A stretch of DNA of 64,000 nt, taken from assembly GCA_001780725.1 (NCBI GenBank), contig MFIM01000005.1, positions 2,127 through 66,126 on the forward strand. The letters are read 5' to 3'. Positions within the stretch are counted from its first letter, which is position 1. Each line of letters starts with the position of its first letter. The position numbers and the translations under genes are program-made. A model generated the notes under the pieces. The model was given only the letters and a program-made list of their open reading frames with translations. It did no database searches and was not told the DNA's origin. Shown piece after piece: positions 23,808 through 26,103 of the stretch. The stretch comes from Candidatus Giovannonibacteria bacterium RIFCSPLOWO2_02_FULL_45_28. GTDB lineage: Bacteria; Patescibacteriota; Minisyncoccia; UBA11713; 2-01-FULL-45-33.

Positions 23808-25313
23808 ATGAAAGCTTGTTTACAGTTGCAAAGGAGATTTGCTTACGTAGGGCACGCCATGGCCGTAGTTTTAAAGAAACGATACGGGGTAAAAGATTTC
23901 TGCGGCTATGTAGAGCTCACTCCGAGCTTGGAGTTTTTGAAATCGCAAAAAGAAATAAAATACTCGGATTTTCTGCTGGAATCGGAACTGCGTAACGGCT
24001 ATAAAACAGAAAAACTTGACCGCGATTATATCCAATTTTTGGGAAAAGAATACGGCCTGCCCAATCTGTGGCCATATATAGAAATAGATCGCACTGTGCG
24101 ATATGGGCTGTATCTCCGCGACTATCCCCACAACACCCCGCCTTTCACGCATGAGGAAATGATGCGCATGCTGCAATCAAGCGCGAAAAAAATCATTGCT
24201 TTTCTGGACAAAGAAAAACCAGATTTTATGCTGTTCGCCGTAATAAATGATTTCACCAATATGCTTCTTTACCATATTGCCAAGAAAAAAAACATTAAAA
24301 CGTTTTTTATCCAGACGGCGCGGATTAGAGGAAAGTATTCCGTTACGGAAAAATACGGCACATTGAGTTTTGTTGAAAATGTTTTTAATCAACTTCAGGA
24401 AAAAAAGTTTTTTTTGCAGGAAAAACGCCTTGAGGCCGAGACCTTCCTGAAAAAATGGCGCGAACACCCAACAACGCATTCGCCCGTTGACGCGCCGAGC
24501 GCGAGGCCGCTCTCCCGCAAAAAACAATTTAATTTTCTTTTGCCGAATAAAATTATAAACACGGTTTACTGGATCGCGAAAAATACCATAGATTACTTCC
24601 GTTACAAAGACCGCGATTATTGTAAAAATCCATTTTATTTCCTCATTGACCGGGCCCGGCGCAAAATAAGGATTTTGGTCGGTTTTGAAGTTTTCTATGA
24701 CGAATTTGACGCAAAAGACGATTTTGCGTTCTATCCTCTGCAGTATGAACCGGAAATGGCGGTTTCTCTTTTTGCGCCGTTTTACACCGACCAGCTGTGG
24801 CTCGCCAAGCAAATCGCAAGATCTCTGCCGATTGGCTACAAATTTTACATAAAAGAGCATCCTGCAATGTTCGGCTATCGGCCGAGAAATTTTTACAGAG
24901 AATTAAAAAAGATACCGAACGTCAAATTAATCAAACCGACAATAACAAGCTTTGAACTCATTGAGCGCGCCAAAATCATTATCACTCTCACCAATACATC
25001 TGCGTGGGAAGCAGTACTTTTAAAAAAACCGGCTATAACTTTCGGCAACGCGTTTTTCAACATACTGCCGATGGTTAAAAACTGCAAAGCCATCGCTGAT
25101 CTGCCCTACATGGTAAAAGAACAGCTTGAAAATTTTAATTACGACGAAGAAGCTCTGCTGAATTTGCTTGCGGCAATTTTCCAAGAAAGCGCGGATCTTG
25201 ACCTTGTGCAAATCTGGGATATAGAAGGCGGGAGCAACATGGAAAAGAAAAAGGAGGCCGTAGCGCCATTTGTAGACTTTCTTGCCTCTAAATTAAATTT
25301 AATGCAAATTTAA
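23808..25313 (+). CDS. Capsule_synth (KpsC/KpsS-like, PF05159) family protein; candidate ulosonic-acid transferase
   Basis: About 500 aa with YPLQYEPE ... FYIKEHPAMFGY ... (KE-HP) patterns as in the copy at 10188..11648. The start is ambiguous: ATG 23808 is the first after the divergent sat start, and the ORF-track start at 23610 overlaps sat. Confidence 0.45.
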   Translation: MKACLQLQRRFAYVGHAMAVVLKKRYGVKDFCGYVELTPSLEFLKSQKEIKYSDFLLESELRNGYKTEKLDRDYIQFLGKEYGLPNLWPYIEIDRTVRYGLYLRDYPHNTPPFTHEEMMRMLQSSAKKIIAFLDKEKPDFMLFAVINDFTNMLLYHIAKKKNIKTFFIQTARIRGKYSVTEKYGTLSFVENVFNQLQEKKFFLQEKRLEAETFLKKWREHPTTHSPVDAPSARPLSRKKQFNFLLPNKIINTVYWIAKNTIDYFRYKDRDYCKNPFYFLIDRARRKIRILVGFEVFYDEFDAKDDFAFYPLQYEPEMAVSLFAPFYTDQLWLAKQIARSLPIGYKFYIKEHPAMFGYRPRNFYRELKKIPNVKLIKPTITSFELIERAKIIITLTNTSAWEAVLLKKPAITFGNAFFNILPMVKNCKAIADLPYMVKEQLENFNYDEEALLNLLAAIFQESADLDLVQIWDIEGGSNMEKKKEAVAPFVDFLASKLNLMQI

Positions 25314-26103
25314 TGACGCCGCACGAGAGAGAGAGAGAGTCGCACAAGCCGCGGACAAAATCCAGGGCTGGACATCTTACCGTGAAGGTTTTTTTCTTTA
25401 TGAAACCGCAAAAAAATGTTCCGGGCGCGGAGTAATTGTTGAAATCGGATCCTGGAAAGGCAGGTCAACTGTTTGCCTGGGGCTAGGGTCGCTCGCCGGA
25501 AACAAAGTTAAAATTTACGCGATTGATCCGCATACCGGCAGCCCGGATCATATCGCAAGCCACCCCGGAGAAAAAATTTGGACTTTTAAAGAATTTAAAG
25601 AAAACATGAAAAATGCCGGGGTTGATAATGTTGTTGAGCCGCTATTAAAAGCTTCCGATGAGGCCGCGCAAATCTGGAAAGAGCCCATTGAGTTTTTGTA
25701 TTTGGACGTCAATTATCACGATTACGAACTTTCCAAAAATGATTTGGCCGATTGGTCAAAACACGTGATAGATGGCGGTACCATTGCAATCCACAACACA
25801 TATCCTGATCTTCGCGCGATTATTTTTGAAAATCAGCCGCTCTTCGGATGGCCGGGGCCGCGGCGCGTACTTAAAGAATTTGTCTTTGGTTCAAAAAATT
25901 TTAAAAATATAGGAATAGTAAGCAATATAACTTATGCAACAAAATGCAATCAAAATACTTTTCTTGATAGGTTGCGTGGGAGATTAACTCAACTCAAAGG
26001 ATTTTTTTCACTTTTCGCCTTAAAAATTTATTTGATTTTAGTGCAGCTTCCGCAACCCGTTAAGAAATTCGTAAAGCGATTGCTTTTTCGGGCCAAAAAC
26101 TAA
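25313..26103 (+). pseudogene. class I SAM-dependent methyltransferase (Methyltransf_24-like) out of frame at a (GA)7 tract; candidate phase-variable gene
   Basis: ATG 25313 overlaps the upstream TAA (TAATG). It reads MTPHERERE through (GA)7 in frame 2 and stops at 25433. The methyltransferase body, including SAM motif I VIVEIGSWKGRST, is open in frame 1 from 25303 with no start codon until ATG 25606. Loss of one GA unit would fuse ATG 25313 to the full ~263 aa methyltransferase. Confidence 0.5.
25325..25339. repeat. dinucleotide simple-sequence repeat (GA)7G
   Basis: Directly visible as gagagagagagagag at 25325..25339, 12 nt downstream of ATG 25313. Confidence 0.9.

What the first reader, a model, noticed from the sequence alone, without database searches (positions are those of the whole stretch)
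25313..26103. (GA)7 tract between a start codon and a methyltransferase body: candidate phase-variation switch, currently OFF
ATG 25313 overlaps the upstream gene's TAA (TAATG, the usual coupling arrangement in this locus). It reads into gagagagagagagag (25325..25339) and terminates after 40 codons at 25433. The complete methyltransferase fold, including the SAM-binding motif VIVEIGSWKGRST and its upstream helix (DKIQGWTSYREGFFLYETAKK), is open in the other frame from 25303 but has no ATG/GTG/TTG until 25606, which would delete motif I. Removing one GA unit (or adding two) joins ATG 25313 to the whole ~263 aa enzyme. Dinucleotide tracts at the 5' end of surface-glycan modifying genes are the classic slipped-strand ON/OFF switch. 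This would make the methylation of this glycan stochastically variable.
Basis: seen in the sequence. Interest (0 to 1): 0.7.

Follow-up and report, generated by a model that had tools for sequence, protein, structure and literature searches.

The report
Sugar methyltransferase frameshifted at GA repeat
Seven GA dinucleotides at the start of a sugar-methyltransferase gene in an uncultured groundwater bacterium (Candidatus Giovannonibacteria) put the gene out of frame; the repeat could act as an on/off switch, but every public assembly carries the same "off" length, so it looks like a recently broken gene, not a proven switch.

Summary
ATG 25313 overlaps the upstream TAA, runs into (GA)7G at 25325-25339 and stops after 40 codons. 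A complete Methyltransf_24 (MeT1-like sugar O-methyltransferase) body is open in the -1 frame and has no ATG/GTG/TTG before 25606. Homologues (about 262-265 aa) align to "MTPHE" before the tract in one frame and to "RERVAQAADKIQGW..." after it in the other, so the frameshift lies inside the tract. (GA)3/6/9/12 give a full enzyme.

The switch interpretation is only partly supported. All 10 copies of the locus I read, from JGI, ENA, NCBI and Logan assemblies, carry exactly (GA)7. The truncated gene call occurs in 79 index blocks. None of the ON proteins, and no leader peptide of another tract length, exists among about 15 billion public proteins. Five related loci, including a syntenic 73%-identical orthologue with the same TAATG junction, have non-repetitive in-frame sequence here. 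This is the only dinucleotide repeat of 5 or more units in the 64 kb.

Best reading: a recent slipped-strand frameshift has silenced one of many glycan-modifying genes. Reversion is mechanically possible but not shown. Read-level tract-length counts would decide.

The parts
23691..25313 (+). Upstream gene of the two-gene plus-strand unit, a Capsule_synth (KpsS/KpsC-like) family protein. Its start is uncertain: gene callers chose 23691, 23787 or 23859, and the longest ORF starts at GTG 23610.
   Evidence: Pfam PF05159, E 5.8e-10. The same upstream gene is coupled to the methyltransferase in L005, L010 and L011.
25311..25315 (+). TAATG stop/start overlap, where the upstream TAA shares one base with the methyltransferase ATG. 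This is the ancestral, translationally coupled start.
   Evidence: Sequence. The same 1-nt overlap occurs in orthologue locus L005, with genes at 1046-2554 and 2554-3348.
25313..25435 (+). Forty-codon out-of-frame product of the true start in the (GA)7 state. Codons 1-5 (MTPHE) are the genuine N-terminus; the rest is frameshift read-through ending at TAA 25433-25435.
   Evidence: Translation. MTPHE aligns to the conserved M-x-T-x-x-E of homologues. This exact 40-aa peptide was called on contigs of several other assemblies.
25325..25339 (+). (GA)7G dinucleotide tract, the site of the frameshift. It encodes the Glu-Arg repeat at codons 5-9.
   Evidence: Identical in L001-L003, L006, L007 and L088-L091. 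Absent from related loci.
25339..26103 (+). Intact methyltransferase body of 254 codons plus stop, in the -1 frame relative to ATG 25313. It is Methyltransf_24, MeT1-like, and includes the N-terminal helix, motif I (VEIGSWKG) and the DPHTGSPDH motif.
   Evidence: Gapless 254-codon alignment to P0001 with 73% identity and dN/dS about 0.09 in both halves. PDB 6g7d matches at E 6.8e-17 over residues 10-166.
25360..25362 (+). ATC codon (Ile of IQGW), used as the start in the GenBank annotation of eight MAG contigs to give a 247-aa product. This is an annotation choice, not evidence of initiation.
   Evidence: P0122 begins MQGW.... The DNA at that position in L006 is ATC, with the same (GA)7 upstream. 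The upstream context is GC-rich, unlike the AT-rich leaders of the other genes.
25606..26103 (+). A 165-aa ORF from the first canonical in-frame start, which is what most gene callers report. It lacks the first 56 residues of the Pfam domain, including the SAM-binding motif I, so it is predicted inactive.
   Evidence: This product is found in 79 index blocks and on 47 contigs.
26038..27300 (-). Convergent GT1-family glycosyltransferase gene whose 3' end overlaps the methyltransferase 3' end by 66 nt. The methyltransferase is therefore the last plus-strand gene, and its frameshift has no polar effect.
   Evidence: Pfam PF00534, E 4.5e-25. The same 66-nt overlap occurs in L005.

Best explanation
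This is a recent slipped-strand frameshift that has switched off a sugar O-methyltransferase gene in one near-clonal Candidatus Giovannonibacteria (Parcubacteria/CPR) groundwater population.

The gene is the second, translationally coupled member of a Capsule_synth -> methyltransferase pair inside a large surface-glycan island. In this lineage only, the purine-rich codons for an E-[KR]-E-[KR] stretch at residues 5-9 became a perfect GA repeat. A change in unit number, most simply (GA)6 -> (GA)7, moved the true start (ATG 25313) into the +1 frame relative to the enzyme body.

Ribosomes starting at 25313 therefore make a 40-residue nonsense peptide and stop at 25433-25435. The 254-codon body has no canonical start before 25606, which would remove the SAM-binding motif. 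The enzyme is not made, and the glycan lacks that methyl group.

Shown:
- the anatomy of the locus;
- that the break lies in the tract;
- that the OFF state is real and identical in all available assemblies;
- that the body is undegraded.

Inferred:
- that the enzyme is not produced;
- that its substrate is a sugar of this locus's glycan;
- that slippage was the mutational mechanism.

The tract leaves the lesion reversible in principle (n=6 or 9), but nothing here shows that reversal happens at a useful rate or is selected for.
For: - The frame break lies in the tract. Sixteen homologues align to frame-2 MTPHE before it and to frame-1 RERVAQAADKIQGW after it. M1 is invariant and E5 nearly invariant.
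- (GA)6 gives 262 aa and (GA)9 gives 264 aa. Both match the leader lengths of 15-17 aa seen in the family.
- Orthologue L005 (73% aa identity, same synteny, same TAATG junction, same 66-nt tail overlap) has the non-repetitive in-frame sequence GAAATTGAAAAGGAGAAAATTGAAAAG at this place. L008-L011 are also non-repetitive and in frame.
- All nine other copies read have (GA)7, and eight of them match the window at every aligned base of the stretch held (1.2-10.5 kb; L007 apart from a 105-bp deletion and a chimeric end); L002 has 2 SNPs in 10.5 kb.
- OFF-type gene calls are widespread. The 165-aa product is in 79 index blocks and on 47 contigs, and the 247-aa ATC call is on 8 NCBI contigs.
- ON proteins for n=3, 6, 9, 12 and OFF peptides for n=4, 10, 13 are all absent from about 15 billion proteins. 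The n=7 peptide is present. No hit of 90% identity or more covers the N-terminus in the homology search.
- The gene body is undecayed. There are no stops or indels over 254 codons, and dN/dS is 0.09 against the orthologue both upstream and downstream of 25606.
- The rest of the window is 97% covered by long ORFs, and this 292-nt stretch is its largest internal gap. It is an isolated lesion in an otherwise intact genome region.
Against: - A perfect 7-unit dinucleotide repeat is very improbable by chance, and it sits exactly where classical contingency loci have theirs. That fits a selected switch at least as well as an accident.
- The undecayed body is equally expected if the gene is periodically ON.
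- All assemblies come from one near-clonal population, largely from one aquifer system, and consensus assemblies hide minority alleles. Uniformity is therefore weaker evidence than the raw counts suggest.
- Absence of the enzyme is inferred, not measured.
Confidence: 0.55

Rival explanations
1. It is a genuine contingency locus. The (GA)n tract changes length by slipped-strand mispairing at a rate high enough to keep ON (n=6 or 9) and OFF cells in the population, making O-methylation of the surface glycan stochastically variable. The sampled populations simply happen to be, or are selected to be, predominantly OFF.
For: - The tract lies at codons 5-9 of a glycan-modifying gene, and its unit arithmetic gives clean ON/OFF states.
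- Its length exceeds the cut-off of 5 units or more used for H. pylori phase-variable LPS genes.
- The repeat is far beyond chance expectation.
- The gene body is fully intact, with dN/dS 0.09.
- The gene is last in its transcription unit, so switching has no polar cost.
Against: - No tract-length variant was found in any of 10 copies read, nor in about 15 billion called proteins.
- The repeat is not conserved in any of five related loci, nor in the other 76 homologous loci scanned.
- No second repeat of this kind occurs in 64 kb of glycan genes. Organisms that use this strategy usually carry several.
- No report of repeat-mediated phase variation in CPR bacteria was found in the literature searches.
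Confidence: 0.28
2. The enzyme is still made in the (GA)7 state by a non-standard translation event. Three routes were considered:
- Initiation at the ATC codon 25360, as annotated in GenBank, giving 247 aa.
- Termination-reinitiation at the ATT 25435 that overlaps the leader's TAA (TAATT).
- A +2/-1 ribosomal or transcriptional slip on the GA repeat, where GAG re-pairs perfectly two bases on.
For: - Eight NCBI MAG records annotate a 247-aa product from ATC.
- That product would keep everything aligned to the solved MeT1 structure except about 6 residues.
- The body is undecayed.
- TAATT at 25433-25437 mimics the TAATG coupling motif.
Against: - ATC and ATT are very weak initiators in studied bacteria (general knowledge, not tested here).
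- The 25 nt before ATC are GC-rich, unlike the AT-rich leaders of the 48 other starts examined.
- The N-terminal 15-17 residues, with invariant M1 and near-invariant E5, would be lost.
- A start at ATT 25435 would remove the conserved helix aligned to MeT1 residues 11-45.
- RNA folding of 25300-25440 is no more stable than shuffled sequence (z = -0.38), so no stimulatory structure is evident.
- To my knowledge no recoding on GA dinucleotide repeats is known.
Confidence: 0.1
3. The (GA)7 length is a sequencing or assembly artefact, and the real gene is in frame.
For: Repeats are error-prone in principle, and this window is a metagenome-derived sequence.
Against: - The identical tract appears in nine other copies read from assemblies made by different groups and assemblers: six JGI contigs, ENA ERZ27254745 and ERZ28563784, NCBI GCA_001780605.1 and Logan SRR3989342.
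- No in-frame version was ever assembled.
- To my knowledge Illumina error at a 15-nt dinucleotide run is low.
Confidence: 0.03

Closest known systems
Dinucleotide-repeat phase-variable genes of Helicobacter pylori. Examples are the CT repeats at the 5' end of oipA, sabA and hopZ, and the phase-variable RfaJ-like LPS glycosyltransferase HP0208. Repeat types are from my memory. That HP0208 is a phase-variable LPS gene, and the criterion of 5 dinucleotide units or more, come from PMC1599737.
   Same: A perfect purine/pyrimidine dinucleotide run lies within the first codons of a surface-structure gene. One-unit changes toggle the reading frame, and the tract length is in the same range.
   Different: In H. 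pylori the tract length differs between isolates and within cultures. The repeat is conserved across strains, many loci per genome carry such tracts, and the organism lacks MutHLS mismatch repair. Here no length variation was found, the repeat is lineage-specific, it is the only one in 64 kb, and the repair status is unknown.
Phase-variable capsule and LOS modification genes of Campylobacter jejuni, Haemophilus influenzae and Neisseria. These carry poly-G or tetranucleotide tracts in methyltransferase, MeOPN-transferase and glycosyltransferase genes (from my memory of the field).
   Same: The logic is the same: an accessory glycan-decorating enzyme at the edge of a glycan locus is gated by a repeat in its 5' coding region.
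   Different: The repeat type differs (homopolymer or tetranucleotide against dinucleotide). Switching has been shown experimentally in those organisms, which are host-associated pathogens under immune or phage selection. Here the organism is an uncultured groundwater CPR bacterium with no switching data.
MeT1, the methylmannose-polysaccharide 1-O-methyltransferase of Mycobacterium hassiacum. The link between PDB 6g7d/6g80/6h40 and MeT1 is from my memory. The function is described in PMC9883506.
   Same: It is the only solved relative by sequence (E 6.8e-17, residues 10-166). It shares the Methyltransf_24 fold, the N-terminal helix, motif I and the D-x-H-x-G-S motif. It acts on a sugar hydroxyl of a polysaccharide.
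   Different: Similarity is distant. The window protein has an extra C-terminal extension of about 90 residues ending in a hydrophobic/basic segment, shared with its CPR and DPANN homologues. The substrate and the position methylated are unknown.
An ordinary frameshift pseudogene at a mutational hotspot.
   Same: There is a single frame-breaking indel, fixed in every sampled genome. Relatives are intact, and no canonical start is available for the body.
   Different: There is no secondary decay at all, and the lesion sits in a perfectly reversible repeat. The gene is at most a very young pseudogene.

Membership tests
Simple-sequence-repeat contingency locus (phase-variable gene) | A perfect short tandem repeat within the 5' coding region (or promoter) of the gene. 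| tested here: met
   (GA)7G lies at 25325-25339, codons 5-9 after ATG 25313.
Simple-sequence-repeat contingency locus (phase-variable gene) | Unit gain or loss toggles between a full-length and a truncated product. | tested here: met
   n=3, 6, 9 and 12 give 260-266 aa. Other n give 22-42 aa.
Simple-sequence-repeat contingency locus (phase-variable gene) | Tract long enough to slip, by the operational cut-offs used in the field. | tested here: met
   Seven units, against a cut-off of 5 dinucleotide units or more in PMC1599737. The rate in this organism is unknown.
Simple-sequence-repeat contingency locus (phase-variable gene) | Tract length differs between isolates or samples of the same lineage. 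| tested here: not met
   Ten of 10 copies read have (GA)7. Exact ON proteins and other-length leader peptides are absent from about 15 billion proteins, while the n=7 peptide is present. Caveat: this is a single near-clonal population and these are consensus sequences only.
Simple-sequence-repeat contingency locus (phase-variable gene) | Within-population (read-level) length heterogeneity above the error background. | not testable with these tools
   No read data are accessible. Sample and run accessions are listed under next steps.
Simple-sequence-repeat contingency locus (phase-variable gene) | The repeat is retained, with varying length, in orthologues of related strains or species. | tested here: not met
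   L005 (73% aa, syntenic) and L008-L011 have non-repetitive in-frame sequence. None of 80 homologous loci carries a repeat at the 5' end of the gene, and none holds a dinucleotide run longer than 5 units. No ER-type repeat occurs in the about 65 homologue N-termini read.
Simple-sequence-repeat contingency locus (phase-variable gene) | The genome carries several such loci, enriched in surface-structure genes. | tested here: not met
   This is the only dinucleotide run of 5 or more units, and there is no poly-G/C run of 8 or more, in the 64-kb glycan island. The rest of the genome was not available.
Methyltransf_24 / MeT1-like class I SAM-dependent sugar O-methyltransferase | Match to the family profile above the curated threshold, with motif I present. 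| tested here: met
   PF13578 scores 67.1 bits against a cut-off of 26.3, covering the full profile 1-105. VEIGSWKG, DPHTGSPDH and D-x-N-Y-H are invariant in 16 homologues.
Methyltransf_24 / MeT1-like class I SAM-dependent sugar O-methyltransferase | Sequence relationship to a biochemically characterised member. | tested here: met
   PDB 6g7d matches at E 6.8e-17 for the single sequence and 2.6e-20 for the profile.
Methyltransf_24 / MeT1-like class I SAM-dependent sugar O-methyltransferase | Methyl transfer to a sugar hydroxyl of the locus's glycan. | not testable with these tools
   This is inferred only from the homology and from the neighbouring glycan genes.
Programmed ribosomal frameshift / recoding site | A slippery motif at the required position, plus a downstream stimulatory structure or a conserved shift site in relatives. 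| tested here: not met
   The shift must occur by about 25340, because frame-1 coding is conserved from there on. There is no X XXY YYZ heptamer in that stretch. Folding gives z = -0.38. Relatives are in frame.
Decayed pseudogene | Multiple disabling lesions or relaxed constraint. | tested here: not met
   There is a single lesion. The 254 codons align without gaps, with dN/dS 0.09 in both halves. This statistic mostly reflects history before the frameshift.

The most novel reading that the evidence does not exclude
The tract is a working repeat-based ON/OFF switch in a Candidate Phyla Radiation (Patescibacteria) bacterium. It would stochastically vary O-methylation of a nonulosonic-acid-containing, sulfated surface glycan, for example to evade phages or to modulate attachment to a host cell. 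As far as my literature searches show, this would be the first contingency locus described in this large uncultured radiation. Any minority (GA)6 or (GA)9 cells would be invisible in consensus assemblies.
Probability: 0.25. Interest if true: 0.65.

Novelty: new member of a known kind. Interest (0 to 1): 0.35.

Why it matters
If the tract switches, it would extend repeat-mediated phase variation from a handful of host-adapted pathogens to ultra-small episymbiotic groundwater bacteria. It would also point to surface-glycan methylation as a trait under fluctuating selection there, from phage or from host-cell contact.

If it does not switch, which I judge more likely, there are two practical lessons:
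- Public annotations of this gene are artefacts of a frameshift. This applies to the 165-aa product from ATG 25606 and to the 247-aa product from a non-canonical ATC. Neither should be used as a family member or for start-codon statistics.
- This population probably lacks one methyl decoration that its relatives make.

Either way, counting tract lengths in reads that already exist would settle the question.

Tried and rejected
1. Scan of JGI metagenome contigs for tracts other than 7 units, using a pattern that matches n=5, 6 and 8 or more but not 7. It gave 0 hits. The control scan with a free gap showed that this collection holds only one contig of the locus, so the negative result carries almost no weight. 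I relied on the exact-protein look-ups instead.

2. Scan of GTDB species genomes for orthologues. The best hit was 58% identity and the window's own species did not appear, so no closer relative than the ENA contig L005 was obtained.

3. Looking for diverged strains that share the frameshift, to measure selection since the event. All contigs match at every aligned base of the stretch held or differ by 2 SNPs in 10.5 kb. One of those SNPs is a synonymous TCA>TCC in the methyltransferase frame. The five apparent mismatches in L007 were alignment spill-over at a 105-bp deletion. There are too few changes for any test.

4. Recurrent 5' truncation in the family. The shorter homologues are C-terminally short or are cut by contig ends, not N-terminally frameshifted.

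5. Shine-Dalgarno support for alternative starts. This genome hardly uses such motifs (4 of 48 starts), so the test reduces to AT-richness of the leader. That favours ATG 25313 and ATG 25606 over ATC 25360.

6. Promoter and terminator scan of 23400-26400. Promoter-like sites did not exceed the shuffle expectation. Terminator-like sites numbered 10 against a shuffle mean of 4.4 (sd 1.9), but none bears on the tract.

7. A second suspected truncated methyltransferase at 32763-33707. It has an intact LNVGSG motif I and is not broken.

8. The 11-bp direct repeat just upstream, as a possible cause of the frame problem. Removing it would fuse the upstream gene to the ATG frame, not repair the methyltransferase frame. 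The orthologue has a junction region of similar length. Rejected as irrelevant to the frameshift (reasoning).

9. Literature search for phase variation, repeats or mismatch repair in CPR bacteria. Nothing bears directly on this locus.
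Full report
**What is in the sequence.**
- The upstream plus-strand gene ends with TAA at 25311-25313. An ATG begins at 25313 (TAATG).
- Four codons later comes GAGAGAGAGAGAGAG (25325-25339).
- This frame reads MTPHERERESHKPRTKSRAGHLTVKVFFFMKPQKNVPGAE and stops at 25433-25435.
- The frame one base behind is open from 25303 to 26103 (266 codons). 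It contains DKIQGWTSYREGFFLYETAKK and VIVEIGSWKGRST.
- Pfam Methyltransf_24 matches residues 46-166 of that reading across the whole profile (67 bits).
- The first ATG/GTG/TTG in that frame is at 25606. That is residue 102, downstream of the SAM-binding motif.
- Editing the tract in silico gives full-length products for 3, 6, 9 or 12 units and peptides of 22-42 residues otherwise.
- The tract is the only dinucleotide run of 5 or more units in the window. It never appeared in 100 dinucleotide-preserving shuffles.

The only amendment concerns the junction. TAATG is not the common junction in this window, where ATGA overlaps are, but it is the junction used at the same place in the orthologous locus.

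**Where the frame break lies.**
- A search of the public protein collection with the (GA)6-restored protein found more than 900 relatives. The closest full-length ones are 262-265 residues long.
- Sixteen of them align without difficulty. They start M-x-[TS]-x-x-E, run 15-17 residues, then I-Q-G-W and the methyltransferase fold.
- The window matches this pattern as MTPHE in the ATG frame and as RERVAQAADKIQGW in the other frame. The switch of frame therefore has to occur inside the GA run.
- (GA)6 gives a 15-residue leader, like P0012 and P0017. (GA)9 gives a 17-residue leader, like P0001.
- The closest relative is P0001 (73% identity). It sits on ENA contig L005 in the same gene order, with the same 1-nt TAATG overlap to the upstream Capsule_synth gene and the same 66-nt tail-to-tail overlap with the downstream glycosyltransferase gene.
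- At the position of the tract, L005 reads GAA ATT GAA AAG GAG AAA ATT GAA AAG, which is purine-rich, in frame and not repetitive.
- Four further related loci are also non-repetitive and in frame. Two of them have the same upstream gene abutting the start.
- No dinucleotide run longer than 5 units occurs in 423 kb of 80 homologous loci. None of the about 65 homologue N-termini I read has an ER-type repeat.

The repeat is a novelty of this one lineage.

**Organism and context.**
- Exact-sequence look-ups name the source as Candidatus Giovannonibacteria (Parcubacteria group, CPR), from groundwater metagenomes.
- The window is a large glycan island. It holds:
  - NeuB, UDP-GlcNAc 2-epimerase, cytidylyltransferases and a PseB-like dehydratase;
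  - several DegT aminotransferases;
  - two Capsule_synth proteins and an ABC exporter;
  - a PAPS module (ATP sulfurylase, APS kinase, sulfotransferase);
  - at least eight other methyltransferases.
- The only solved relative of the frameshifted enzyme is PDB 6g7d (E 6.8e-17, residues 10-166). To my knowledge this is MeT1, the methylmannose-polysaccharide 1-O-methyltransferase described in PMC9883506.

A sugar O-methyltransferase acting on this locus's glycan is a reasonable inference. It was not tested.

**Is the OFF state real and is it variable?**
- The truncated 165-aa product from ATG 25606 is on record in 79 index blocks of the assembly collection and on 47 contigs.
- Eight NCBI MAG contigs instead annotate a 247-aa product. 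On inspection this starts at the ATC codon 25360, on the same (GA)7 DNA.
- I read nine other copies of the locus: six JGI contigs, two ENA assemblies, one NCBI MAG and one Logan run assembly. All have exactly (GA)7.
- Eight of the nine match the window at every aligned base of the stretch held (1.2 to 10.5 kb; L007 apart from a 105-bp deletion and a chimeric end). The ninth differs by 2 SNPs in 10.5 kb.
- The sharpest test was an exact look-up among about 15 billion called proteins. The four ON proteins (n=3, 6, 9, 12) and the leader peptides expected for n=4, 10 and 13 are all absent. The 40-residue n=7 peptide is present.
- The homology search likewise returned no N-terminally complete protein above 73% identity.

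The tract length is therefore not an artefact, and at the level of assembled consensus it does not vary. There are two limits. All copies belong to one near-clonal population, and consensus assemblies cannot show minority alleles. My DNA-pattern scan of the JGI contig collection was uninformative, because that collection holds only one contig of this locus.

**State of the gene body.**
- The 254 codons after the tract align without a gap to P0001.
- dN/dS is about 0.09 both for the 89 codons upstream of 25606 (82% identity) and for the 165 codons downstream (68% identity).
- There is no second lesion.
- The window as a whole is 97% covered by long ORFs, and this 292-nt stretch is its largest internal gap.

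The frameshift is therefore young relative to the split from the nearest known relative. Alternatively the gene is kept in use. The data cannot separate these two, because no diverged strains that share the frameshift exist in public data.

**Alternative ways of making the enzyme.**
- This genome rarely uses Shine-Dalgarno motifs (4 of 48 starts) and has AT-rich leaders. ATG 25313 and ATG 25606 fit that pattern, but the GC-rich context of ATC 25360 does not.
- An ATT at 25435 overlaps the leader's stop (TAATT). Starting there would delete the conserved helix that aligns to residues 11-45 of the solved structure.
- A ribosomal slip would have to occur by about 25340. No classical slippery heptamer lies there, and the RNA around it folds no better than shuffled sequence (z = -0.38).
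- A +2 re-pairing of GAG on the repeat is geometrically possible, but I know of no precedent.

I give these routes together about 10%.

**Verdict.**
- The anatomy matches the textbook design of a repeat-gated contingency gene. The tract also passes the length criterion used for Helicobacter LPS genes (5 or more dinucleotide units, PMC1599737).
- The features that define such a locus in practice were tested as far as assemblies allow, and were not met. These are length polymorphism within a lineage, retention of the repeat in relatives, and several such loci per genome.
- I therefore do not file it as a phase-variable gene.
- The best-supported account (about 55%) is a recent slipped-strand frameshift that silenced an accessory glycan methyltransferase and is fixed in the sampled population.
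- A working switch remains a live rival (about 25-30%), because the lesion is perfectly reversible, the body is pristine, and a 7-unit perfect repeat is unlikely to persist by accident.
- My literature searches found no report of repeat-mediated phase variation in CPR bacteria. If the switch were confirmed, it would be a new member of a known kind of system, in a new and large part of the bacterial tree.
- Counting tract lengths in the existing reads would settle it.

Noticed in passing
window 21608-23809 (-), with 21042-21596 (-) and 20081-21052 (-): A 733-aa fusion of a pyruvate-kinase barrel domain (residues 9-328) with PUA_2 and ATP-sulfurylase domains. It lies next to an APS kinase and a sulfotransferase. 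This is an unusual domain fusion, and it implies a sulfated glycan in a CPR bacterium.
   Followed up: no
window 25295-25315: An 11-bp direct repeat, AAATTTAATGC x1.9, that duplicates the TAATG stop/start junction. The first TAA (25300-25302) is the stop that closes the methyltransferase frame upstream. The orthologue L005 has a non-repeated junction of similar length.
   Followed up: partly
L007 (JGI Ga0209323_10020463), corresponding to window 24317-24421: This contig carries the same locus with a 105-bp in-frame deletion inside the upstream Capsule_synth gene. Its first 134 nt are unrelated GC-rich sequence. It is either a strain variant or a chimeric contig.
   Followed up: partly
L004 (JGI Ga0209521_10180384) positions 1-47, junction at window about 25584: A 1.3-kb contig identical to the window from 25584 onward. 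It is preceded by 47 nt of unrelated AT-rich sequence found nowhere in the window. The junction lies at the 9-bp tandem TTTAAAGAA x2 (25585-25602). This gave rise to a spurious 188-aa cluster-representative protein, P0002.
   Followed up: partly
window 26038-26103, and L005 3283-3348: The methyltransferase gene and the convergent GT1 glycosyltransferase gene overlap tail-to-tail by 66 nt. The overlap length is conserved in a relative with 72% nucleotide identity.
   Followed up: no
whole window (48 long-ORF starts): Only 4 of 48 ATG starts have GGAG, GAGG or AGGA within 22 nt upstream. Leaders are AT-rich, and many genes overlap by ATGA. This suggests largely Shine-Dalgarno-independent initiation.
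   Followed up: partly
window 25360 and GenBank proteins OGF50477.1, OGF59610.1, OGF60351.1, OGF72671.1: Public MAG annotations give this gene a 247-aa product that starts at a non-canonical ATC translated as Met. Other records give 165 aa from ATG 25606. Both are consequences of the frameshift, not real N-termini.
   Followed up: yes
window 30338-31969 (-): A 543-aa protein combining fragments of a UDP-glucose/GDP-mannose dehydrogenase with a C-terminal Methyltransf_11 domain. Only about 30 residues of the dehydrogenase N-terminal domain match, plus the central domain. It may be a degenerate or novel fusion.
   Followed up: no
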